Shown: positions 44,431 to 54,154, numbered from the stretch's first letter. The stretch: 54,154 nt of DNA from Nitrososphaerota archaeon (GCA_016871975.1 VHBM01000001.1:1-54154), one strand, 5' to 3'. Translations and numbers: made by a program. The notes: generated from the letters alone by a model not told the origin.

Positions 44431-44787
44431 TTAGCTTCCAAGCATTTTTCCAGCCAGATTTTCTTTTCGAGGTATCCATGTTAATTTTATTTTAGGAAGT
44501 TTTGCAATTAACTCCCATGCTTCCCTTGCTAGACTTCGCAGCTGATCATTGTTTATTGCATTTTCGTGATTTAGTTGTGCAATCGTATTTTTGGAGTCAC
44601 TATAGACAACAATCTCATCATCTTTGGATTTTACAAATTTTAGTGAGGCTATTATTGCAAGATATTCTGCTTGATTATTTGTGATGTTTGGCTTCTTTTC
44701 ATAAAATGATTCACCTGTCTCTTTAACATAAAAGCCATATCCAGAATTATTCCCCCCTGAACCATCTACATAAATGCTAATTGACAT
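44431..44787 (-). CDS. rnhA: Ribonuclease HI (type 1), minimal form
   Basis: IYVDGSG (Asp1), NNQAEYLAII (Glu) and VVYSDSK (Asp2). Only 118 aa, with no basic protrusion. Confidence 0.8.
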   Translation of the reverse strand: MSISIYVDGSGGNNSGYGFYVKETGESFYEKKPNITNNQAEYLAIIASLKFVKSKDDEIVVYSDSKNTIAQLNHENAINNDQLRSLAREAWELIAKLPKIKLTWIPRKENLAGKMLGS

Positions 44788-44799
44788 GAAAAGATGTCT

Positions 44800-45552
44800 T
44801 TAGATACCAAACAAATTGTTTACTATTGCTATTTCATATAGAATGTTTGTGCCAATAAGTAAACTTGCAAATCCAGCAATGTACCTAAGAGCTTTGTTTG
44901 CAGATTCGATCTTGTTTATAAACGCAAAAGGAAGTCCGATTAGTCCACTTACCATCACCATTCCAATTACAGACCCAATACCAAATATCAAAATGAAGCT
45001 TAAAGTTGTCTCAATGTTACCAAGTGTACTAGCAGTCAATACAACTAGACTTCCACTTCCAGCTAATCCGTGAATGCAACCTATAAGGTAGGATTTGTGT
45101 GAATGTTTGTGGTCACTATCGTGTTCATGTGGATGAGTATGAATCGTACCGTCGTCATGGGTGTGAGTGTGTAAGTGTTTTAGCGTAAACAGTTTTTTGT
45201 TGCTAAATGTTGTAAATGCAAGAAAAACCAGCATTATTCCAACAATAAATTCAAAACTCATGAAAACATTTTGTGGAATGTTTATTGCCAAAAGATAGAC
45301 AGCAAGCCCCATTAGTACAAGTGTTGTTGTATGACCTGCACCCCACATAGCACCAAGAAATGACGACTTGAATGTACCTTCTGTAATTATTTTCCTGACT
45401 GATTGCAGTTTGTATCGTCGTTTTGAGATCTGAGTACTTACTGCTGCTACATGATCTGGCTCAAATGCGTGTTGTAAACCTATAGCAAGACCCAATGTCA
45501 AAACTAGTGCTGGAGTCATTGCCTGTAATTGTTCAATAATTTGTTCTACCAA
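44800..45552 (-). CDS. NicO/NiCoT-like nickel/cobalt transporter (UreH/RcnA-like) with His-rich loop
   Basis: Six predicted TM helices. TM motif LQHAFEPDHVAAV (H-x4-DH signature), WGAGHTTTLV, and a central loop HLHTHTHDDGTIHTHPHEHDSDHKHSH. The TTG start lies 1 nt after the upstream stop. Confidence 0.7.
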   Translation of the reverse strand: MVEQIIEQLQAMTPALVLTLGLAIGLQHAFEPDHVAAVSTQISKRRYKLQSVRKIITEGTFKSSFLGAMWGAGHTTTLVLMGLAVYLLAINIPQNVFMSFEFIVGIMLVFLAFTTFSNKKLFTLKHLHTHTHDDGTIHTHPHEHDSDHKHSHKSYLIGCIHGLAGSGSLVVLTASTLGNIETTLSFILIFGIGSVIGMVMVSGLIGLPFAFINKIESANKALRYIAGFASLLIGTNILYEIAIVNNLFGI

Positions 45553-45553
45553 T

Positions 45554-45955
45554 TTACGCCTGTTTTCTAGTATTTGGTATCAAGATATAATCACTAGTTG
45601 GTATTGGTTCATCAAGTGTTATGGTCACTGTTGGATTATTGTCAAGTGTTACATCAAAGTTTAACTTTCTTATTGATTCTGGAACTCCAATCATTACTTT
45701 ATCCTGAGATAGAATTTTTCTTGTGTTTTCCTTTATTGATTCAACTGATTTTTCATCACGTAATTCACTAATAACATAGGCACAATACACAAGAATCGCC
45801 TCATTTAGATTAATTCTTAGATTTTTTGAAAGTCGTTGCTTGACTAGCTCAATTGAAGAAAAAAAGACATTTTCTGAATCAGAATCATACTGGAATATTT
45901 TAGTTATGGGCTGTACATCTGGCTCGCCATGTATGATTACTTTAACATGAATCAT
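45554..45955 (-). CDS. Urease gamma-subunit-like protein (orphan, no other urease genes nearby)
   Basis: Residues ~38-118 (KQRLSKNLRINLNEAILVYCAYVISELRDEKSVESIKENTRKILSQDKVMIGVPESIRKLNFDVTL...TITLDEPI) align almost without gaps to Klebsiella UreA as I recall it ([66 protein letters not shown]...VTVHNPI). Identity is roughly one third. The start overlaps the ureohydrolase stop as ATGA. Confidence 0.55.
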   Translation of the reverse strand: MIHVKVIIHGEPDVQPITKIFQYDSDSENVFFSSIELVKQRLSKNLRINLNEAILVYCAYVISELRDEKSVESIKENTRKILSQDKVMIGVPESIRKLNFDVTLDNNPTVTITLDEPIPTSDYILIPNTRKQA

Positions 45956-47070
45956 TTTCTTTTTGGAATTTCTGATCGAGATTCTTTTCCAAAGTGATAT
46001 GTATTTCCTGTACCACGATACTTATGAGGTCGCACAGGACTACCATCCTTTTTGCCTTGTTTTGTAAGGGATAGTCCTGCTAAGAGCTCAACTATCAATC
46101 TCTGTCCAAGTCCTGATGTAATGCCACCATTGTATGAGCTTTGATCACTGACATCATATGTAGGAGATACTTCTACAAGATCCATTGCAAACTTATCAGG
46201 ATCAAATCCTACAGAAAATTGTCGCACCAATCTCATTCCCTCCCTTGAAGTAAGGCCGTTTGGCTCAGGTTCACCTGTACCTGGAGCATATGCAGGATCA
46301 AAAGAGTCAATATCCCATGTAAGATAGACAGCATCTGTTCCATCGTTTGCACGGTCAACTGCTTCTTTTGCTATAGTATCAATTCCCATCTCTTCAACAT
46401 CAAGCATTGTAAACCATTGAAAATCCTGGTCTGACATCCATTTGTAGAGGTCAGGCCCAGGCCAGTATCCTCTTGGACCAATTAGAGTATAGTTTTTGCC
46501 TTTTAGACATCCAAGTTCCATGACTCTTCGAATGTGTGCACCGTGGTCATATTTGAAGCCGCAAAGACCCTGTGGTGCGCAATCAGCGTGTGTGTCTAAG
46601 TGTATTATTCCAATATTTTTGTATTTTTTTGCAAATGCTCTAACATTTGCAAATGTGATTGAATGATCTCCTCCAAGCATTACAGGTATTCCATTTATGT
46701 CGAGTACTTCTTTGACCTTTTCTGTCATTCTTTTGTGTGATTCAATAACATCGCCTGGTGAAACATTCACATCACCATAATCAACTGCTCTGAAGACACC
46801 AAAAGGATCGGCACCAGTCTCTATGTTAAATCGCTCATATGGAGGAGCAGGTATTGTAGATGCCGCACGTATAGCTCTTGGTCCGTAACGGGCACCTGGA
46901 CGAATTGTTGTTCCAAAATCAAATGGTTCACCGATTATAGCTACATTTGGTTTTACCTTTTGAAGTTCTGCATGGCTTTGTACCCATGGCAGATGCAAAA
47001 ATGTGTTGATTCCAACAAATGGGGGTTGATCATTCCCTCTGTATGATTCACCGTAAAATTCCATTCCCAT
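45952..47070 (-). CDS. Arginase-fold ureohydrolase (agmatinase / guanidino-acid hydrolase / guanidine hydrolase family)
   Basis: All binuclear-metal ligands are present: GGDHS (H136), HLDTHAD (D159/H161/D163) and TWDIDSFDP (D253/D255). Also APGTGEPEPNGLTSRE and DLVEVSP. At 372 aa, with a ~40-aa basic C-terminal tail, it is longer than classical SpeB. Confidence 0.85.
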   Translation of the reverse strand: MGMEFYGESYRGNDQPPFVGINTFLHLPWVQSHAELQKVKPNVAIIGEPFDFGTTIRPGARYGPRAIRAASTIPAPPYERFNIETGADPFGVFRAVDYGDVNVSPGDVIESHKRMTEKVKEVLDINGIPVMLGGDHSITFANVRAFAKKYKNIGIIHLDTHADCAPQGLCGFKYDHGAHIRRVMELGCLKGKNYTLIGPRGYWPGPDLYKWMSDQDFQWFTMLDVEEMGIDTIAKEAVDRANDGTDAVYLTWDIDSFDPAYAPGTGEPEPNGLTSREGMRLVRQFSVGFDPDKFAMDLVEVSPTYDVSDQSSYNGGITSGLGQRLIVELLAGLSLTKQGKKDGSPVRPHKYRGTGNTYHFGKESRSEIPKRK

Positions 47071-47238
47071 TTTAATTCAAAATTATGATCTATGGTATGT
47101 TATTAAATATGTCTAGGTAAAGTACGATTTGTTTTTTCAAACGAAAATCAAATTTTTATTTAATTATTGTGTATGATCGCAAAAAATTGTCTGCAATGCA
47201 CGATCAATTATAAACAAAGTACATTATAATTAATTGAA

Positions 47239-48476: not shown

Positions 48477-50027
48477 TTAATGTGCTGCGCTTTTACTTGA
48501 TGCATCTTCACCAGAACTTGGTACAAAGTGTTTTAGATCTTCACCTGATATGAGATCTTCTTCTGGTGGAACATAGTCCCTTACATCATGTCGTGCTTTG
48601 CCAGGCCATTTCTTTTGTGTAGCTAATGCTACGCCAATAAATACTGCAAAGGATATTGGTGGTGGTATCATTGTGTCTAGTCCTGCCCATTCTATAGGCA
48701 TTGTAAAGAAGAATGCTAATCGTAGAGCGGAACCCACTAAAAGTGAAGCAATTGCAGCAGGCATGTTTGCCTTTCTCCAAAACAGCCCTAGTGTAAGCGG
48801 TGCAAATGCACCTGCAAATACGATATCAAATGCCAATATTAGATAGATGCCAGGTGCTGGTACGAAGTAGCCAAGAAGGAATCCTGCAACCATCATTGGT
48901 ATTATGACTGCTCTTGTAACCCATAACAGTTTTTTGTCTGTCCAAGGTTCTTTATGCAACCATCTTCGTCGAATGATTCTTTGGATCAGATTTCTTGAAA
49001 CAACACTAGAGATCGCCAACAATCCACCATTTGCTGTGGACATTGCAGCCCCAAGAACTCCCATCAAAAGAGCTGCGCCTATTACAAATGGCATATGATT
49101 GATAGCTAATTCAGGCATTGCAGTAAACGGATCTTCTAATCCTGGCAAAAAGTGTAATGCGATTATTCCCATCATACTTGTTGGAACTACAGTAAATATT
49201 GTAAGTGCACCTCCCCAGAAGGCTCCACGCTGTGCAGTTTTTGGATCTCTTGCTGCAAATACTCTTTCCATAAAGTCAAGTGCAACTATATCACCGAGAC
49301 CAAGTGCAAGTATGCCGGCCCAATTGATGAGGGCGCCCGATGCAATATCAGTTAGTCCTGACAGATCCATATATCCAGGTGGTGCACTGCCAAGTATGGT
49401 ATCAAATGGAACTCCTGCAAATCCGCCTGCAAAGAAGATAAACGCTGCCCAGAAAGCACCTATTGCAAGATAAATCTGGAATATGTCCGTGTAAGCAGAG
49501 GAGAAAAGTCCACCTGCAAAAGTATATGAAAGTACAACTAGAGCTGCAATAAGTACCCCCCAAAAGAAGTCAATGCCAAAAACTGTTTGTAGTATAAATC
49601 CACTTGCTGCAAAGTTTCCTGCCACAAGTACCGTAAAACTAATTATCATCAAAACGCCGGAAATTCCTTCTGCAGCATTACCAAACCTTCTAAAATAAAA
49701 GTCGGGCAAAGTAAACATGGTCATCTTGTTTAATGGTTTGCCGTAAAAGAAGCCAGTCAAAAGAAGGCATATTCCAAGGCCTATAGGAATTACAGCTCCT
49801 GCCCAAAACCCAAATTGATATACAAGAGCAGCATTACCTAACGATGAATTACCATCTATTGATTGTGCTGCAAGCATTGTGCCTACAAAAAACAAAGGTA
49901 GAGTCTTTCCAGCAACCATTAATCTTCGGCCACTTTTTTGAACCAGTTTGTAAGTCAGAGTTCCTACTACCAAAGAGGCTATCAGAAATCCAATTATTGC
50001 GATGCCAAAACCAGTAATCTCTGCCAT
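48477..50027 (-). CDS. Sodium:solute symporter family (SSF) transporter
   Basis: About 13 TM helices with SSF-like N-terminal architecture (VAGKTLP...GTMLAAQSIDGNSSLG) and a hydrophilic C-terminal tail. Substrate unknown. Confidence 0.75.
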   Translation of the reverse strand: MAEITGFGIAIIGFLIASLVVGTLTYKLVQKSGRRLMVAGKTLPLFFVGTMLAAQSIDGNSSLGNAALVYQFGFWAGAVIPIGLGICLLLTGFFYGKPLNKMTMFTLPDFYFRRFGNAAEGISGVLMIISFTVLVAGNFAASGFILQTVFGIDFFWGVLIAALVVLSYTFAGGLFSSAYTDIFQIYLAIGAFWAAFIFFAGGFAGVPFDTILGSAPPGYMDLSGLTDIASGALINWAGILALGLGDIVALDFMERVFAARDPKTAQRGAFWGGALTIFTVVPTSMMGIIALHFLPGLEDPFTAMPELAINHMPFVIGAALLMGVLGAAMSTANGGLLAISSVVSRNLIQRIIRRRWLHKEPWTDKKLLWVTRAVIIPMMVAGFLLGYFVPAPGIYLILAFDIVFAGAFAPLTLGLFWRKANMPAAIASLLVGSALRLAFFFTMPIEWAGLDTMIPPPISFAVFIGVALATQKKWPGKARHDVRDYVPPEEDLISGEDLKHFVPSSGEDASSKSAAH

Positions 50028-50321
50028 GTCCTAATTGGAAAGCGAGTGTGATTATTTAAGGATTAAATAATTAAAGTAAAGTACGTCTTCAAGAATAAAG
50101 GATAATGTGTAAAATACGTAGTTAATTAGTTGAATTAGTCGGTTGTGGCTTTTAATTCATGTTTTATAATAATGTTATTTTCATTTTAGAAATTAATCTA
50201 AATCATGTAATGTTCATTGAAAAAGTAATGCCATATACGAAAGAATTTGTCTGAAGTTCTAAAAGATTTCTTAGTTTACGAATTTTAAATTTTTATTAGT
50301 TTGTGAAATACCTTCTCTGCG

Positions 50322-50504
50322 ATGGCAAAGCAAGAAGCAGCAGCTGTTATTATAATCTTGTTAGGATTGGGTTTAACGCAGTTAGAAGGTGGCACAAATG
50401 CGTTCTATGTTGGAGCTGGATGGGGCACAATTGGAATAGCATGCTTATGGTTATGTGTCTTAATTTTCAAAGATTTAAAGAAAAAAGGTAAAAAGAAAAA
50501 ATAA
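50322..50504 (+). CDS. Small membrane protein with poly-Lys tail
   Basis: 60 aa with two hydrophobic helices (AAAVIIILLGLGL, WGTIGIACLWLCVLIF) and a KKKGKKKK terminus. Preferred over the overlapping alternative-frame ORF 50303..50491. Confidence 0.45.
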   Translation: MAKQEAAAVIIILLGLGLTQLEGGTNAFYVGAGWGTIGIACLWLCVLIFKDLKKKGKKKK

Positions 50505-50543: not shown

Positions 50544-51059
50544 ATGCCAAGCCAAGGTTATTCAACGATAGGACTCAAACCTTCAATTATAAGCGAACTT
50601 CAACGCATAACTGATCAGTACTACCCAGGTATGTTTTTGCCAAGTACACTAATAATTACAATGAATGAAATCAAGCGTGGATATTATACGCCAGAAATGC
50701 ACAACATAAAAGTCGATCTTTCAGGGCGCTATAATTCACTGACTATCAGATCCGATGTGAAAGAGTGGCTTGAGGAAAATTATAAAAATCTTTTTGATTT
50801 GTATGCAGAAAGATATGGAATTGAAAATTTCGCTCAATTTGTTAGCTATTTTATTATGAATCTATTTCAGTCAAAGATAAAGGCACAAGAACAGGTCATT
50901 AAACTAAAAGCCTCTGAATTCAAATGGCTAATTCAAGAATATAAAAAACGAAAAAAACAAAATGGATTAGATACCGCTACATTTGATCGATTTGCAGATG
51001 AGTTTTTAAGAGAACTACTTGAAAAAATAAATGAAGCAAAGAAAATTTTATCTACATAA
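50544..51059 (+). CDS. Hypothetical protein (possible N-terminal ribbon-helix-helix)
   Basis: 171-aa ORF with typical coding composition. STIGLKPSIISELQRI could be a beta-strand plus helix of an RHH fold. That is inference only. Confidence 0.4.
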   Translation: MPSQGYSTIGLKPSIISELQRITDQYYPGMFLPSTLIITMNEIKRGYYTPEMHNIKVDLSGRYNSLTIRSDVKEWLEENYKNLFDLYAERYGIENFAQFVSYFIMNLFQSKIKAQEQVIKLKASEFKWLIQEYKKRKKQNGLDTATFDRFADEFLRELLEKINEAKKILST

Positions 51060-51086: not shown

Positions 51087-51347
51087 CTAAATTGGACTCA
51101 TTGTATCAAGTAATCTTGCGTTAGTTACTTGCCCTGTTTTTTCCTGAAATTCTAGGTCTACTGTGTATTTGAGATTGTTTTGTAAAAATCTAACCTGAAC
51201 ATCCCAACCTGTTCGTGGGCCTTTTTCAGGTAAAGGAAACGTTTCACTGACTTTAAAGTCTGACACATCACCATATAGAGCTTGAATGATTCTTTTCGAT
51301 TCTCTTTCGATGTCTTGTGATGTACTAACTTTAGTCATGATCATCAT
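51087..51347 (-). CDS. Hypothetical small protein
   Basis: 86-aa ORF predicted to be mostly beta (WDVQVRF, YTVDLEF, TGQVTNARL). No family recognised. Confidence 0.4.
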   Translation of the reverse strand: MMIMTKVSTSQDIERESKRIIQALYGDVSDFKVSETFPLPEKGPRTGWDVQVRFLQNNLKYTVDLEFQEKTGQVTNARLLDTMSPI

Positions 51348-51519: not shown

Positions 51520-53211
51520 TTGAAATATCCTGATCTTCTTGGCAAAGATGTAGCGCGAGTTGGAGTTCAGACTACGCGCAAGTATAATCTTCTTGCAAGC
51601 AGAATGATCACTGATGTGATTAAAACTTCACTTGGCCCACGGGGTATGGATAAGATGTTTATTGATATACAAGGAGATGTTTATGTAACAAAGCATGGGG
51701 GTGCATTCCTACGAAAAGTAGATCATGAGCACCCTGCAGCAAAAGCAGTTGTAGATGCGGCAAATTCCGTTGATAACCATGTAGGGGATGGAACTATTTC
51801 TGTTGTTGTTTTAATTGGGGCATTATGTGCAAAGGCAGAAGAACTGCTAAAAAGCGAGATTCCACCTGCAACAATTGCCTCTGGCTATCAGATAGCCTCA
51901 GATATTGCCCTTGAGACACTTGCCTCAGTTGCTCAAAAAGCAAGTGTTTCTAGCAGAGATATGATGATGTGGCTTGCTTTAACATGTCTCAAAGGTAAGT
52001 CAATATCAGATATGATTGATGAAGAGATTGTAGCAAAACTAATTGTTGATGCAGTTTGTACTATTGCCGATTTTAAAAATAACAAGATAGATGTTGATGA
52101 TATAAAAATTGAGGAAAAACTTGGTAATGCAACAGATGTTCAGCTAATAAATGGGATTGTGGTTGATAAAACAATTGATAATTATGCAATGCCAAAAATT
52201 ATCAAAGACGCAAAAATTCTTTTAACAAACGAATTTCTTGAACCCACTCGTACTAAGATAGACGATGAGATAATAATAACATCGCCAGAACAGATGAACG
52301 TATTCATAAAACGAGAATCTGATACGGTCATCGAAAAAGTTCAGAAGATAATTGATGCGGGAGTTAATGTTGTTATATCTAGAAGGGGGATTAACCAGTT
52401 TGCTCAAGAATGTCTTGCAAGATCTGGAATAATTTCTATCAAGCGAGCTACAGAAAATGATTTGTGGTGGCTTGAAAAAGCTACGGGTGCAAAGATCTGC
52501 GAAGATCTTAACAACATTTCCAAAGATGAATTAGGATGTGCAAAAAAAGTTTATGAAAAAACGGTAGGAGATGATAAAATGGTATTTGTTGATGGATGTA
52601 ATAATCCAAAGGCAATTACAATTTTGTTAAGGGCAAATTCTAAAAAATATCTTGAAGAATTTCATCGGACAGTAAAAAATGTATATTTTGTTTTACGAAA
52701 TTTCATCGAGAATCCACAAATAGTTGGCGGAGGTGGATCTGTAGAAGCAATAATTGCACAAAAAGTAAGACAAAAGGCTCACATGATTGAAGGTAAAGAA
52801 CAAATTGTTGTAGAAAAGTTTGCTGATGCATTAGAAGAAATTCCAATAACCCTTGCTAGAAATGTAGGTATGGATGTAATTGATACTATTGTTGAACTTA
52901 GGGCAAAATATGCTCAGTTTGTCAATGGTAACTATGAATGGATTGGCATAGATTCATCTCAAAGAAAAGTAGCTGAAGTTTTTTCAAAAAATGTAGTTGA
53001 GACTCTTGCTGTAAAAGAACAGGTTATCAAAACAGCTGCCGAAACTACCATTGCATTGCTAAATGTAGATGATATTTTTATGAAAGATGAAATTGATAAT
53101 ACTCACTGTCATATTGATGGCACGGTTCATGCTCACCACGATGGTGGTAAGGCGCACAATCATTTTGAGCAAGAAGGAATAGAGCAGCGTCAAATGCACC
53201 ATTATTACTAG
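51520..53211 (+). CDS. ths: Divergent group II chaperonin (thermosome/CCT family) paralogue with His/Cys-rich C-terminal tail
   Basis: LGPRGMDKM, EHPAAK, GDGT, the GGGGSVE motif and overall colinearity with thermosomes. However TNDG reads TKHG, the catalytic-Asp region reads VKNV, and the tail is THCHIDGTVHAHHDGGKAHNH...MHHYY rather than GGM repeats. TTG start. Confidence 0.85.
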   Translation: MKYPDLLGKDVARVGVQTTRKYNLLASRMITDVIKTSLGPRGMDKMFIDIQGDVYVTKHGGAFLRKVDHEHPAAKAVVDAANSVDNHVGDGTISVVVLIGALCAKAEELLKSEIPPATIASGYQIASDIALETLASVAQKASVSSRDMMMWLALTCLKGKSISDMIDEEIVAKLIVDAVCTIADFKNNKIDVDDIKIEEKLGNATDVQLINGIVVDKTIDNYAMPKIIKDAKILLTNEFLEPTRTKIDDEIIITSPEQMNVFIKRESDTVIEKVQKIIDAGVNVVISRRGINQFAQECLARSGIISIKRATENDLWWLEKATGAKICEDLNNISKDELGCAKKVYEKTVGDDKMVFVDGCNNPKAITILLRANSKKYLEEFHRTVKNVYFVLRNFIENPQIVGGGGSVEAIIAQKVRQKAHMIEGKEQIVVEKFADALEEIPITLARNVGMDVIDTIVELRAKYAQFVNGNYEWIGIDSSQRKVAEVFSKNVVETLAVKEQVIKTAAETTIALLNVDDIFMKDEIDNTHCHIDGTVHAHHDGGKAHNHFEQEGIEQRQMHHYY

Positions 53212-53222
53212 ATTTATGTCAA

Positions 53223-54154
53223 TTATTTAGACAGTCTAGAAAACAAGGCAGCGTATAGAAACGGAAGAATTGTTGTCGCCTCTGCATGTATCGTAGTTTG
53301 TTTTGCATTTTGTGTTACCTTTCCCCAAGATATTGCTTCATCCACTAATGCGCCACTTGAGCTCCCATCGAATTCTTGTGCAGTTGTTATGTATGCTGCA
53401 TAATCCAAACCATCCCTATATTGATTCCACCAAAGCGTATGATGTTTTGGTACTCCACCACCAATCATTAGGGCACCCGATTTTTTTGCTTTAAAGATAA
53501 GACCAGACAAAAGATCCGCATCTGCAATAAGATTTAGCTTAAAATCATGATGTTTTTGTGTAAAAAGCCAGATCTGACTTCCAACCGCACCATCCATTAT
53601 ACCAGGAACAACAACTGGAATTTCATTTTTGTATGCCCAATACAAAAATGAGTTTTCACCCATGTGGCGACCTATCATTTTTGTGATATCCGCAGTTGAC
53701 ATCTCTTTATTTCCTGCCTTGTATTCTTCTTCCAAAAAGGCTTGCGTCTTTTCTTCAATTATTGGGCCATAGCTCTGCATTGGTACAAGCACATTGCCTA
53801 GTCTATGGATATGTTGATCAGCAAGCTGTTTATCATCCAGTGCAAAGTCACCTTCTTTGTAATTTGAGAAATATCTTGCAATATCATGATCTAGAGATCC
53901 ACAAGTTGTGATAACAACATCAAACCACTTGTTTTTTATCATGTCTTTTATTACACCACGAAGACCTGTTGAGATAATAGCAGCAATAAATGACAAAAAC
54001 TTTAGACATTTTTTATCAGGAATCATTGTTGATAGAATATCTAGTCCTTCAGCGAGATTTCTTGCCTCAAATCCCCCCGACTTTGACATTTGCTCAAATA
54101 TTTCTTCAATATTAGATTCCTTTTTTATTGAAATGTCTTTTACGTCTCGTCCTG
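53223..54154 (-). CDS. dys: Deoxyhypusine synthase (5' end outside window)
   Basis: SGGFEARNLAEG, TTCGSLDHD, VPGIMDGAVG, MIGGGVPKHH and the EAISWGK active-site Lys region. The frame stays open upstream of the track ATG to the window edge (…GRDVKDISIKKESNIEEIFEQ). Confidence 0.88.
   Translation of the reverse strand, partial: GRDVKDISIKKESNIEEIFEQMSKSGGFEARNLAEGLDILSTMIPDKKCLKFLSFIAAIISTGLRGVIKDMIKNKWFDVVITTCGSLDHDIARYFSNYKEGDFALDDKQLADQHIHRLGNVLVPMQSYGPIIEEKTQAFLEEEYKAGNKEMSTADITKMIGRHMGENSFLYWAYKNEIPVVVPGIMDGAVGSQIWLFTQKHHDFKLNLIADADLLSGLIFKAKKSGALMIGGGVPKHHTLWWNQYRDGLDYAAYITTAQEFDGSSSGALVDEAISWGKVTQNAKQTTIHAEATTILPFLYAALFSRLSK

What the first reader, a model, noticed from the sequence alone, without database searches (positions are those of the whole stretch)
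44800..47070. Tightly coupled operon: arginase-fold ureohydrolase, orphan urease-gamma-like protein and His-rich Ni/Co transporter, a candidate nickel-dependent guanidino-compound hydrolase system
Seen in sequence: three minus-strand genes are packed with no room for independent promoters.
- The ureohydrolase stop and the next start overlap as ATGA (45952-45955).
- The transporter's TTG start lies 1 nt after the preceding stop (45553 gap).
- The middle 133-aa product aligns almost without gaps, at about one third identity, to the urease gamma subunit UreA as I recall the Klebsiella sequence.
- No ureB, ureC or ureDEFG is anywhere in the 54 kb.
- The ureohydrolase keeps all six binuclear-metal ligands. 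It is about 60 aa longer than classical SpeB and has a basic tail.
- The transporter carries the H-x4-DH NiCoT-type motif and a 27-aa loop with 11 His.

Established knowledge (as I recall it): an 'agmatinase' homologue in Synechocystis (Sll1077/GdmH) is a Ni2+-dependent guanidine hydrolase that needs Ni-delivery partners. Complete ammonia oxidisers can grow on guanidine.

Inference: a urease-gamma-like subunit attached to an arginase-fold enzyme and co-expressed with a Ni importer is not a described architecture. In an ammonia oxidiser it could release urea or ammonia from guanidine, agmatine or guanidino acids.

Conservative alternative: an ordinary Mn agmatinase or aminopropylagmatinase feeding polyamine and hypusine synthesis (deoxyhypusine synthase lies at 53223..54154). 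In that case the transporter would import Co for cobalamin.
Basis: partly seen in the sequence, partly recalled or inferred. Interest (0 to 1): 0.85.

Follow-up and report, generated by a model that had tools for sequence, protein, structure and literature searches.

The report
Urease-gamma look-alike coupled to archaeal ureohydrolase
In ammonia-oxidising archaea, a urea-releasing arginase-fold enzyme is always followed by a fast-evolving copy of the small urease subunit and often by a histidine-rich nickel-type transporter; this undescribed module belongs to the archaeal urea/urease gene island and may mark a new metal-dependent route from guanidino compounds to urea and ammonia.

Summary
Three tightly packed minus-strand genes encode an arginase-fold ureohydrolase (UH), a 133-aa urease-gamma-like protein (GAM) and a His-rich NicO-like membrane protein (NIC). 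No other urease gene lies in the 54 kb.

The GAM gene directly follows the UH gene in 53 of 53 related loci across ammonia-oxidising archaea (AOA). In 38 of them the two genes overlap by 4 nt. GAM has the UreA fold plus an N-terminal hairpin found across the AOA family (reduced in one lineage) and is under purifying selection.

The "orphan" reading is lineage-specific. In other AOA the same module abuts or is co-directional with ureABC-EFGD. The closest non-AOA enzymes sit directly next to urease operons, one of them immediately upstream of ureA, which explains where GAM came from.

UH belongs to an uncharacterised clade. Its nearest solved relatives are guanidinobutyrase and the Ni-dependent guanidinases. 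It has Glu where guanidinase has its specificity Trp, so it is not a GdmH-type guanidinase, and it scores below the agmatinase cutoffs.

Links to nickel recur: NIC, a NikR plus HoxN-type permease in one lineage, and His-rich tails. All are genomic, and urease may explain them.

Best reading: a urea-supplying ureohydrolase module with a UreA-derived accessory protein. Ni dependence and a physical complex remain untested.

The parts
45952..47070 (-). Ureohydrolase (UH), 372 aa, arginase fold. Member of an uncharacterised 'Glu-clade' of the guanidinobutyrase/guanidinase branch. Metal ligands are H136, D159, H161, D163, D253, D255. Glu267 sits at the GdmH Trp305 position. Cys164 is AOA-specific. 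The C-terminal tail is basic and predicted unstructured.
   Evidence: Pfam Arginase 265.8 bits. Below the NCBIfam agmatinase cutoffs. PDB sequence hits: 3nio 190 bits, 7esr 175, 9fek 166, against SpeB about 115. AF2 model pLDDT 85.4, with Foldseek top hits 7esr and 9fek. Clade signatures. dN/dS 0.01-0.06.
45554..45955 (-). GAM, 133 aa: a UreA (urease gamma) paralogue with an N-terminal beta-hairpin and a C-terminal extension. Its start overlaps the UH stop (ATGA).
   Evidence: Pfam Urease_gamma 46.7 bits against a cutoff of 23.9. Below the NCBIfam UreA equivalog cutoffs. AF2 model pLDDT 80.6; Foldseek matches only urease gamma chains, target-normalised TM 0.70-0.73. Directly downstream of the UH gene in 53 of 53 loci. 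dN/dS 0.09-0.40.
44800..45552 (-). NIC, 250 aa: a roughly 6-TM NicO-superfamily (UreH/RcnA-like) membrane protein. It has the HAFEPDH signature and a 27-aa loop with 11 invariant His. Probable Ni(Co) permease.
   Evidence: Pfam NicO 21.2 bits, below the 27.7 cutoff. 12 of 16 family members hit NicO, best E = 2.7e-6. hhalign to a bona fide NicO aligns only the signature region, probability 35%. Motifs are invariant across AOA. TM count and His count.
47100..47126 (-). Promoter region of the operon: operator-like palindrome CGTACTTTACCTAG (47126..47113) directly upstream of a TATA-like ATATTTAATAA (47110..47100), about 56 nt before the ATG.
   Evidence: Conserved alignment across AOA orders. Exact core CGTA-N3-TAC at 45-70 nt upstream of the UH gene in 28 of 47 loci; background about 0.02 per 160 nt. 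The exact 14-mer occurs once in the window.
48477..50027 (-). SSF-family sodium:solute symporter (the AOA 'dur3'-type transporter). A conserved neighbour whose promoter carries the same motif.
   Evidence: Pfam SSF 103 bits. Present in 36 loci. Also linked to the ureohydrolase in haloarchaea and in L068. AOA SSSF 'dur3' is treated as the urea transporter in PMC12686405.
50076..50117 (-). Two copies of CGTA-N3-TAC (50117..50108 and 50085..50076), at 91 and 58 nt upstream of the SSS start codon, followed by a TATA-like TTATTTAAT.
   Evidence: Sequence read directly; per-family motif count.
51520..53211 (+). Thermosome paralogue with a conserved His-rich C-terminal tail (9 His in the last 45 residues). 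Part of the conserved neighbourhood.
   Evidence: Thermosome models at about 500 bits. Tail conserved with 8-10 His in 31 full-length loci across several AOA genera of both orders. Adjacent to the module in 36 loci.
44431..44787 (-). RNase H-like gene starting 12 nt after the NIC stop. A fourth gene of the packed unit, seen only in this lineage and probably unrelated in function.
   Evidence: Pfam RVT_3 and RNase_H. Present downstream of NIC only in L001-L004, L010, L035, L038 and the window.
53223..54154 (-). Deoxyhypusine synthase (runs off the window end). Directly upstream of the UH gene in several Nitrososphaera loci.
   Evidence: Clusters with the DHS genes of L032-L034, L041 and L043-L045. 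Pfam DS family in L060.

Best explanation
The three genes are the core of a conserved AOA module that belongs to the urea/urease gene island.

1. **UH** is a metal-dependent ureohydrolase of an uncharacterised clade, marked by Glu267. It hydrolyses a guanidino compound and releases urea. The substrate is unknown: agmatine or another cationic guanidine derivative is my guess, and the enzyme is not a GdmH-type guanidinase. This step is inferred.
2. **The urea** is destined for urease where one is present. Urease is adjacent in many relatives but is not in this window.
3. **NIC** is a His-rich NicO-superfamily permease that most likely imports Ni for the island's metalloenzymes. That means urease where present, and possibly UH itself. 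This step is inferred.
4. **GAM** is a paralogue of UreA. It most likely arose because the UH gene ancestrally sat directly upstream of ureA. It keeps the UreA fold, gained an N-terminal hairpin, evolves fast but under purifying selection, and is translationally coupled to UH. It most likely acts as a protein-binding accessory of UH: a small subunit, or an adaptor towards urease or its Ni-insertion proteins. It is not a urease subunit proper. This step is inferred.
5. **Transcription** starts from one promoter carrying a palindromic operator-like motif that the SSS transporter promoter shares. The motif is shown; what it regulates is inferred.
For: **The UH-GAM pair.**
- The GAM gene directly follows the UH gene in 53 of 53 loci, with a 4-nt overlap in 38.
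- GAM has the UreA fold.
- Purifying selection acts on all three genes.

**Physical link to urease.**
- Nitrososphaera: DHS-UH-GAM-NIC-thermosome-ureDGFE-ureABC.
- L060-62: UH-GAM-NIC-ureABC-EFGD, all on one strand.
- Marine L063: UH-NIC next to ureCBA and ureEFG.
- Cenarchaeum L052: UreD follows NIC.
- Non-AOA relatives: ureABCEFGD-UH-ABC transporter, and UH-ureA-ureB-ureC-FGD with a 24-nt gap.
- GAM_L060 is intermediate between UreA and the other GAMs.

**Enzyme placement.** UH is closest to guanidinobutyrase and the Ni-guanidinases, not SpeB, and is below the agmatinase model cutoffs. Most AOA carry 2-3 speB copies (PMC10753782).

**Metal links.**
- NIC motifs and His loop.
- A HoxN-type NicO plus NikR takes NIC's place in L058.
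- A ZIP transporter follows the enzyme in a haloarchaeon with no urease nearby.
- A His-rich insert sits in the enzyme's own tail in one subgroup.
- The neighbouring thermosome has a His-rich tail.

**Regulation.** The UH and SSS promoters share a motif, and GAM and NIC have none.

**Precedent.** Ni dependence of GdmH and metformin hydrolase was first inferred from the same kind of gene neighbourhood (PMC11399263).
Against: - No biochemical data exist. Substrate, metal and any UH-GAM contact are all inferred.
- The window and its close relatives have no urease gene nearby, and I could not determine whether these genomes have one elsewhere.
- One marine clade keeps UH, NIC and urease but lacks GAM, so GAM is dispensable there.
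- GAM evolves about ten times faster than UH in dN, which is unusual for an obligate partner of a very conserved enzyme.
- NIC has an RcnA-like 3 + His-loop + 3 topology, so efflux cannot be excluded.
- No natural UH-GAM fusion exists among the best 150 hits in 1.84 billion representatives.
- DHS adjacency in Nitrososphaera also fits a polyamine or hypusine role.
Confidence: 0.5

Rival explanations
1. UH and GAM form an obligate heteromeric Ni2+-dependent guanidino-compound (or guanidine) hydrolase, and NIC is its dedicated Ni importer. The system works independently of urease in this organism.
For: - The operon stands without urease in 54 kb.
- Translational coupling is conserved.
- The top structural neighbours are the Ni-guanidinases 7esr and 9fek.
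- Thr97, His and Glu equivalents of guanidinase are present.
- A metal transporter sits next to the enzyme in a haloarchaeon without urease nearby.
- A His-rich insert sits in the enzyme's tail in one subgroup.
- NikR plus NicO lie next to UH-GAM in L058, with no urease gene called in the 11-kb locus.
- Heteromeric Ni-ureohydrolases are known (PMC11399263).
Against: - The specificity Trp305 of guanidinase is replaced by Glu.
- No HypA/HypB-type chaperone lies in the neighbourhood and there is no guanidine riboswitch.
- GAM is lost in a marine clade that keeps UH and NIC.
- In most lineages urease is adjacent and suffices to explain the Ni transporter.
- Palatinszky et al. found no guanidine-degradation genes in AOA (PMC11410670).
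Confidence: 0.22
2. UH is an ordinary Mn agmatinase (or aminopropylagmatinase) feeding polyamine and hypusine synthesis. GAM is a drifting leftover of a ureA duplication with little function. NIC serves unrelated Ni or Co needs, such as urease elsewhere or cobalamin.
For: - Pipelines annotate the enzyme as agmatinase.
- DHS lies directly upstream of the UH gene in several Nitrososphaera loci and 6 kb away in the window.
- The AOA literature assumes SpeB turns agmatine into urea (PMC6790972).
- GAM has relaxed constraint and was lost once.
- An unrelated RNase H-like gene is equally tightly packed.
Against: - UH scores below both NCBIfam agmatinase cutoffs and is closer to guanidinobutyrase and GdmH than to SpeB.
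- Most AOA have further speB copies.
- GAM dN/dS is 0.09-0.40, with invariant residues and the gene order kept in both AOA orders sampled (Nitrososphaerales and Nitrosopumilales), which does not fit a pseudogene-like relic.
- The clade is linked to urease, transporters and metal permeases in three unrelated groups.
Confidence: 0.15
3. GAM is an alternative or regulatory gamma subunit of urease itself, assembling with UreB and UreC. Its position after the UH gene is only a historical accident.
For: GAM keeps the UreA fold and the VMxGVPE core. It lies within the urease island in many lineages. It descends from UreA.
Against: - It is always coupled to the UH gene and never to ureB or ureC.
- A canonical, highly conserved ureA co-resides in the same loci.
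- It is present in this window with no urease gene in 54 kb.
- It is lost in a marine clade that keeps urease.
- It is below the UreA equivalog cutoffs, and the N- and C-terminal extensions change the termini.
Confidence: 0.1

Closest known systems
Ni2+-dependent guanidine hydrolase GdmH (Synechocystis Sll1077, PDB 7ESR/7OI1) and Nitrospira inopinata guanidinase (PDB 9FEK)
   Same: Arginase fold, all six metal ligands, and the Thr97, His and Glu equivalents. They are the top structural neighbours (TM about 0.76, 34% identity). Both release urea that urease then uses. Both sit in a Ni-related gene neighbourhood.
   Different: Glu267 replaces the specificity-determining Trp305/313. There is no HypA/HypB-type chaperone and no guanidine riboswitch. 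UH forms a separate clade with its own insertions (PSPPYEHFNIETG, SSYNGGITS) and a basic tail. It has a UreA-like partner gene, which no guanidinase has.
Guanidinobutyrase GbuA and guanidinopropionase GpuA (Pseudomonas aeruginosa, PDB 3NIO, 3NIP)
   Same: GbuA is the best sequence match among solved structures (190 bits, 36% identity). They belong to the same branch of the ureohydrolase superfamily and release urea.
   Different: They carry Thr at the position where UH has Glu. An acidic residue there argues against a carboxylate-bearing substrate (inference). Their gene context is different, and they are Mn enzymes.
Urease gamma subunit UreA (PF00547; e.g. Klebsiella aerogenes 1A5K chain A)
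   Same: Homologous in sequence (E = 7e-11, about 29% identity) and in predicted fold (target-normalised TM 0.70-0.73). GAM shares the VMxGVPE core and descends from UreA.
   Different: GAM is 133 aa against 100 aa, with an added N-terminal beta-hairpin and a C-terminal extension. It is below the NCBIfam UreA cutoffs. Its gene is coupled to an arginase-fold enzyme gene, not to ureB or ureC. It evolves far faster (22-45% identity where UreA keeps 65-73%). It co-exists with a canonical ureA.
Heteromeric Ni-dependent metformin/dimethylguanidine hydrolase (MefH/DmgH, MfmAB; PDB 8SNF, 8RYI)
   Same: A ureohydrolase that needs a second, non-catalytic protein encoded next to it, with Ni chaperone and Ni transporter genes in the same operon. 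It is a close structural neighbour.
   Different: The partner there is a second arginase-fold subunit; here it is a UreA-fold protein. The chaperones are HypA/HypB and the transporter is HupE. A complex is demonstrated there and only hypothesised here.
NicO-superfamily 6-TM Ni/Co transporters (UreH of Bacillus sp. TB-90, RcnA of E. coli; comparison from own knowledge)
   Same: About six TM helices, an H-x4-(D/G)-H signature in the first TM, and a central His-rich loop. They are associated with urease clusters (UreH).
   Different: The window protein falls below the Pfam NicO cutoff. It is only remotely alignable to HoxN-type NiCoT, over the signature region. Transport direction and metal are untested.

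Membership tests
Urease gamma subunit (UreA) | Profile match above the curated threshold | tested here: inconclusive
   The Pfam PF00547 gathering score is met (46.7 against 23.9 bits). All NCBIfam UreA models score far below their cutoffs (48.6 against 123; 43.7 against 82.3).
Urease gamma subunit (UreA) | UreA alpha/beta fold | tested here: met
   AF2 model pLDDT 80.6. Only urease gamma chains match in the PDB, target-normalised TM 0.70-0.73, probability 1.00.
Urease gamma subunit (UreA) | Encoded with ureB and ureC, and part of the (alpha-beta-gamma)3 urease | tested here: not met
   No ureB, ureC or ureDEFG in the window. The GAM gene always follows the ureohydrolase gene. Where urease is nearby, a separate canonical ureA is present. 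Assembly itself cannot be tested here.
GdmH-type guanidine hydrolase | Arginase fold with six binuclear-metal ligands | tested here: met
   H136, D159, H161, D163, D253, D255. Foldseek top hits are 7esr and 9fek.
GdmH-type guanidine hydrolase | Thr97 and Trp305 (Synechocystis numbering), which confer guanidine specificity (PMC11410670) | tested here: not met
   The Thr is present (T55), but the Trp is replaced by Glu267. This holds throughout the clade.
GdmH-type guanidine hydrolase | Ni2+ dependence, with dedicated Ni-loading proteins | not testable with these tools
   No HypA/HypB homologue among the annotated neighbours. Ni-related neighbours (NIC, NicO plus NikR, urease accessory genes in relatives) are circumstantial.
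Agmatinase SpeB | Equivalog-level profile match | tested here: not met
   TIGR01230 scores 160.7 against a cutoff of 174.3. NF002564 scores 204.2 against 302. SpeB structures rank below the guanidinobutyrase, guanidinase and metformin hydrolase structures.
Agmatinase SpeB | Agmatine-specific pocket residues | not testable with these tools
   The determinants (Trp68, Tyr155 in E. coli) are not conserved even among agmatinases (PMC8125230).
NicO/NiCoT nickel-cobalt transporters (PF03824) | Profile match above the curated threshold | tested here: not met
   The window protein scores 21.2 against 27.7 bits. 12 of 16 family members match at E <= 0.01. hhalign to a bona fide NicO gives probability 35% over the signature region only.
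NicO/NiCoT nickel-cobalt transporters (PF03824) | H-x4-D-H signature in a transmembrane helix | tested here: met
   GLQHAFEPDHVAAV, conserved in the aligned AOA homologues.
NicO/NiCoT nickel-cobalt transporters (PF03824) | Ni or Co transport, and its direction | not testable with these tools
   A crude hydropathy scan indicates about 6 TM with a central His-rich loop. Replacement at the same position by a HoxN-type NicO plus NikR in L058 argues for import.

The most novel reading that the evidence does not exclude
GAM is a urease-gamma mimic that adapts an arginase-fold enzyme to the urease world. In one version it is a small subunit of a new heteromeric Ni-dependent ureohydrolase. In another it is a docking adaptor that lets the urease Ni-insertion machinery (UreDEFG) load the ureohydrolase, or that tethers the ureohydrolase to urease for urea channelling. 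Either way, ammonia-oxidising archaea would gain a previously unrecognised route to use guanidino compounds, taken up by the co-regulated SSF transporter, as a source of ammonia and energy.
Probability: 0.2. Interest if true: 0.85.

Novelty: new variant of a known kind. Interest (0 to 1): 0.62.

Why it matters
[quoted passage not shown] Guanidine use has been shown for comammox bacteria and was reported absent from AOA.
- **What is new here.** A conserved, co-regulated module of a distinct ureohydrolase clade, a UreA-derived protein, a nickel-type permease and an SSF transporter sits in the urea island of both AOA orders sampled (several genera). That points to an unrecognised substrate feeding urea into AOA metabolism. 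It may also be a third kind of Ni-linked ureohydrolase, with an accessory protein of a type not seen before.
- **Annotation.** It exposes systematic mis-annotation: 'urease subunit gamma' in contigs where it is not linked to ureB/ureC, 'HflD' and 'TauE/SafE' for the permease, and 'agmatinase' for the enzyme. This can distort metagenomic inference of urea use.
- **Testability.** The predictions are concrete and can be tested with recombinant proteins.

Tried and rejected
1. **Natural UH-GAM fusion.** An exhaustive profile search of 1.84 billion representatives gave no hit longer than 221 aa among the best 150. The longer ones only carry low-complexity tails.
2. **Cultured, urease-negative AOA carrying the module.** Two cluster look-ups returned only MAG or metagenome entries. 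Genome-level co-occurrence with urease therefore stays unresolved.
3. **Sequence determinants of Ni versus Mn use, or of agmatine specificity.** The literature offers none that transfer.
4. **A UreD remnant at 50159-50431.** This was a weak tblastn hit (E = 0.023). The region holds only tiny ORFs and an AOA UreD query does not hit it, so I rejected it as noise.
5. **Guanidine or other riboswitches.** Rfam finds only tRNAs in the window.
6. **Horizontal transfer as the reason for about 83% UH identity between AOA orders.** Rejected, because the flanking GAM, NIC and thermosome genes are only 40-55% identical in the same locus pairs.


Full report
**1. The observation**

- a 372-aa ureohydrolase (UH, 45952..47070);
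- a 133-aa protein (GAM, 45554..45955);
- a 250-aa membrane protein with a TTG start (NIC, 44800..45552).

The UH stop and the GAM start overlap as ATGA. One base separates the GAM stop from the NIC start.

The profile results are as follows.
- UH hits Pfam Arginase at 265.8 bits.
- GAM hits Urease_gamma at 46.7 bits against a gathering score of 23.9.
- NIC reaches only 21.2 bits on NicO, below the 27.7 cutoff.
- GAM aligns to Klebsiella UreA at E = 7e-11 over residues 30-116 with one single-residue gap. My count from that alignment is about 29% identity.

- tblastn with real UreA-G proteins taken from related loci finds no urease gene in the 54 kb.
- The six metal ligands, the basic tail, the HAFEPDH motif and the 11 His in a 27-aa loop are all present.

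One thing was missed. An RNase H-like gene (44431..44787) starts 12 nt after the NIC stop, so tight packing by itself says little in this compact genome.

The window looks like a Nitrosopumilales-type ammonia oxidiser (AOA). It has 36.6% GC, and 4-hydroxybutyryl-CoA dehydratase-like and ADP-forming acyl-CoA synthetase-like ORFs (assigned by eye) lie next door. The closest loci are groundwater and soil Nitrosopumilaceae MAGs.

**2. Conservation**

GAM homologues form a family of roughly 125-135-aa proteins, usually auto-annotated 'urease subunit gamma'. A scan of species-representative genomes gave 53 loci. All are Nitrososphaerota: Nitrosopumilaceae, Nitrosotalea, Nitrososphaera(ceae), Nitrosopolaris and Cenarchaeum.

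- In every one of the 53 loci with upstream DNA (51 scan loci plus the window and L058), the UH gene lies directly upstream of the GAM gene. The two overlap by 4 nt in 38 loci.
- The NIC gene follows the GAM gene in 28 of 51 informative loci.
- UH is extraordinarily conserved, at 81-99% identity even between AOA orders. GAM is only 29-86% identical.
- dN/dS is 0.01-0.06 for UH, 0.07-0.21 for NIC and 0.09-0.40 for GAM. GAM is therefore a real gene under relaxed purifying selection.
- Horizontal transfer does not explain UH's conservation. The flanking genes are far more diverged in the same locus pairs.

**3. What GAM is**

The AlphaFold model is confident (pLDDT 80.6, pTM 0.76). It shows a beta-hairpin at residues 2-23, followed by three helices and a second hairpin. 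Foldseek against the PDB returns only urease gamma chains, at TM 0.70-0.73 normalised to the target.

GAM is thus UreA plus an N-terminal hairpin seen across the AOA family (reduced in L060) and a conserved C-terminal 'PIPTSDYIL' extension. It falls far below the NCBIfam UreA equivalog cutoffs.

In a neighbour-joining tree the GAMs group away from canonical UreAs on long branches. One GAM (L060, 110 aa, lacking most of the hairpin) is intermediate: 38% identical to its co-resident UreA and 25-27% to the other GAMs. Canonical AOA UreA keeps 65-73% identity across lineages in which GAMs share 22-45%.

An exhaustive profile search found 343 relatives at E <= 1e-3 and no fusion to an arginase domain.

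**4. The wider context changes the interpretation**

In other AOA lineages the module is not isolated.

| Locus or lineage | Gene order |
|---|---|
| Nitrososphaera (L033, L043) | SSS ... DHS-UH-GAM-NIC-thermosome-ureD,G,F,E-ureA,B (locus ends within ureB) |
| Nitrososphaerales/Nitrosomirales-like (L060-62) | UH-GAM-NIC-ureA-ureB-ureC-ureE-ureF-ureG-ureD, one co-directional array |
| Marine clade incl. Tara Oceans (L063) | UH-NIC beside ureCBA and ureEFG, no GAM |
| L059 | UH-NIC, no GAM |
| Cenarchaeum (L052) | UreD follows NIC |

Outside AOA, the nearest UH relatives (55-57% identity) also sit next to urease.
- One lies between ureABCEFGD and a NitT/TauT-type ABC transporter.
- One lies directly upstream of ureA (24-nt gap), ureB, ureC and ureFGD, with an SSF transporter at the end.

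That second order, UH followed by ureA, gives a simple origin for the AOA UH-GAM pair.

Haloarchaeal relatives (about 50% identity) pair the enzyme with an SSF symporter and a MazE/PhoU-type regulator. In one case a ZIP metal transporter lies directly downstream with no urease nearby.

The module therefore belongs to a urea-related island. The window's lineage (L001-L004, L010, L035, L038) is the variant in which urease is not adjacent. I could not find out whether these genomes carry urease elsewhere.

**5. What UH is**

Among solved structures the ranking runs as follows.
- By sequence: guanidinobutyrase (190 bits), GdmH (175), N. inopinata guanidinase (166), with SpeB at about 115.
- By predicted fold (model pLDDT 85.4): 7esr and 9fek first.

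UH scores below both NCBIfam agmatinase cutoffs.

Guanidine specificity depends on Thr97 and Trp305 (PMC11410670). UH keeps the Thr, the catalytic His and the Glu, but has Glu267 at the Trp position. That Glu is a clade signature.
- AOA, the urease-linked 55-57% group and the haloarchaeal group all share it.
- The next group out (42-45% identity) and guanidinobutyrase, guanidinopropionase and proclavaminate amidinohydrolase have Thr.

The clade also shares two insertions and an EGxPVRP motif. AOA add Cys164 next to ligand D163 and a basic, predicted-unstructured tail. In one subgroup that tail contains a His-rich stretch.

UH is therefore neither a GdmH-type guanidinase nor a canonical SpeB. 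The substrate cannot be read from sequence. An acidic residue lining the pocket argues against guanidino acids and for a cationic substrate; this is an inference.

The AOA literature assumes SpeB converts agmatine to urea for urease (PMC6790972). It also reports 2-3 speB copies in most AOA (PMC10753782).

**6. The nickel question**

NIC has invariant GLxHAxExDHxAAV, WGxGHT and GxxHGxAGSG motifs and an invariant His ladder.
- 12 of 16 family members hit Pfam NicO.
- A profile comparison aligns only the signature helix to a bona fide NicO.
- The topology is about 3 TM, a His loop, then 3 TM. From my own knowledge this resembles UreH and RcnA, so the direction of transport is open.

In the largest UH cluster (L058), NIC's place is taken by a HoxN-type NicO (72.5 bits) and a NikR (122.9 bits, above its cutoff). 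This argues for import.

Two further features add to the metal theme: the His-rich insert in some UH tails and a conserved His-rich tail on the neighbouring thermosome in 31 full-length loci from both orders.

Known Ni-ureohydrolases were first recognised from just such neighbourhoods (PMC11399263). Here, however, urease is the obvious Ni client in most lineages. Only the ZIP case and the window lineage hint that UH itself needs a supplied metal.

**7. Regulation**

A palindromic core CGTA-N3-TAC(G) lies directly upstream of the TATA-like box.
- It sits 45-70 nt before the UH start codon in 28 of 47 loci from both AOA orders. The background is about 0.02 per 160 nt.
- In the window it is at 47126..47113.
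- Two more copies precede the SSS (dur3-type) gene, at 50117..50108 and 50085..50076.
- The motif never precedes GAM, NIC, ureA, ureD or DHS.

So the operon has one promoter of this kind, and in this lineage it shares an operator with the transporter gene.

**8. Verdict**

The best-supported account (confidence about 0.5) is a urea-supplying ureohydrolase module of the AOA urea island. Its second gene is a UreA-derived accessory protein and its third a Ni-type permease.

Ni dependence of UH, a UH-GAM complex and the substrate all remain untested. I found no description of this architecture in the searchable literature.

I rate it a new variant of a known kind, of moderate to high interest.

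Noticed in passing
window 51520..53211 (+); also L033 7158-8927 and 30 other loci: The thermosome paralogue next to the module ends in a conserved His-rich tail (e.g. HCHIDGTVHAHHDGGKAHNHF...MHHYY, with 8-10 His in the last 45 residues). The tail is present in 31 full-length loci from both AOA orders. It is reminiscent of the Ni-binding tail of H. pylori GroES (own knowledge). It may be a metal-buffering chaperonin tied to the urea/Ni island.
   Followed up: partly
window 47113..47126, 50076..50085 and 50108..50117 (minus strand); UH promoters in 28 of 47 loci: A palindromic operator-like motif, CGTA-N3-TAC(G), lies directly upstream of the TATA box of the ureohydrolase operon. It is conserved across AOA orders. 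It is also present in two copies upstream of the SSS (dur3-type) transporter gene in this lineage. The binding factor is unknown.
   Followed up: yes
L060 6001-7317 (P0127); also P0132 and P0142: A Nitrososphaerales/Nitrosomirales-like subgroup of the ureohydrolase carries a His-rich insertion in its C-terminal tail (HLHQDEHGRTRIHSHSHGNHGHSH). In L060-62 (P0127) the enzyme sits in one co-directional array with GAM, NIC and ureABCEFGD; the context of P0132 and P0142 was not examined.
   Followed up: partly
window 44431..44787 (-): An RNase H-like gene (RVT_3/RNase_H, 118 aa) starts 12 nt after the NIC stop. This gene order is conserved only in the window's lineage. It is probably an unrelated passenger in the transcription unit.
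   Followed up: no
window 51087..51347 (-) and 50544..51059 (+): Two proteins with no family hit (86 aa and 171 aa) are conserved beside the thermosome and the SSS gene, in 31 and 11 loci respectively. No Pfam or NCBIfam model matches them. They could be regulators of the island.
   Followed up: no
L067 6001-8096; L054 and L066 2895-7107: Haloarchaeal members of the same ureohydrolase clade are flanked by an SSF symporter and a MazE/PhoU-domain regulator. In L067 a ZIP metal transporter lies directly downstream, with no urease nearby.
   Followed up: partly
window 45554..45955 and 44800..45552; database entries P0012, P0019, P0070, P0338, P0347, P0285: Public annotation is misleading. GAM is called 'urease subunit gamma' even where ureB and ureC are not linked. 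NIC is variously called 'HflD', 'sulfite exporter TauE/SafE', 'RcnA' or 'high-affinity nickel permease'. This can inflate inferred urease potential in metagenomes.
   Followed up: partly
window 50159..50431 (+): A weak tblastn hit of a non-AOA UreD (32% over 99 aa, E = 0.023) falls in the ORF-poor gap between the SSS gene and the next gene. An AOA UreD query does not hit it. It is probably compositional noise rather than a urease remnant.
   Followed up: partly
window 46579..46581 (Cys164 of the ureohydrolase): All AOA members have Cys directly after the metal ligand Asp163 (HADC), where the non-AOA clade members have Thr (one Ala in the outermost group). The significance for metal choice is unknown.
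   Followed up: no
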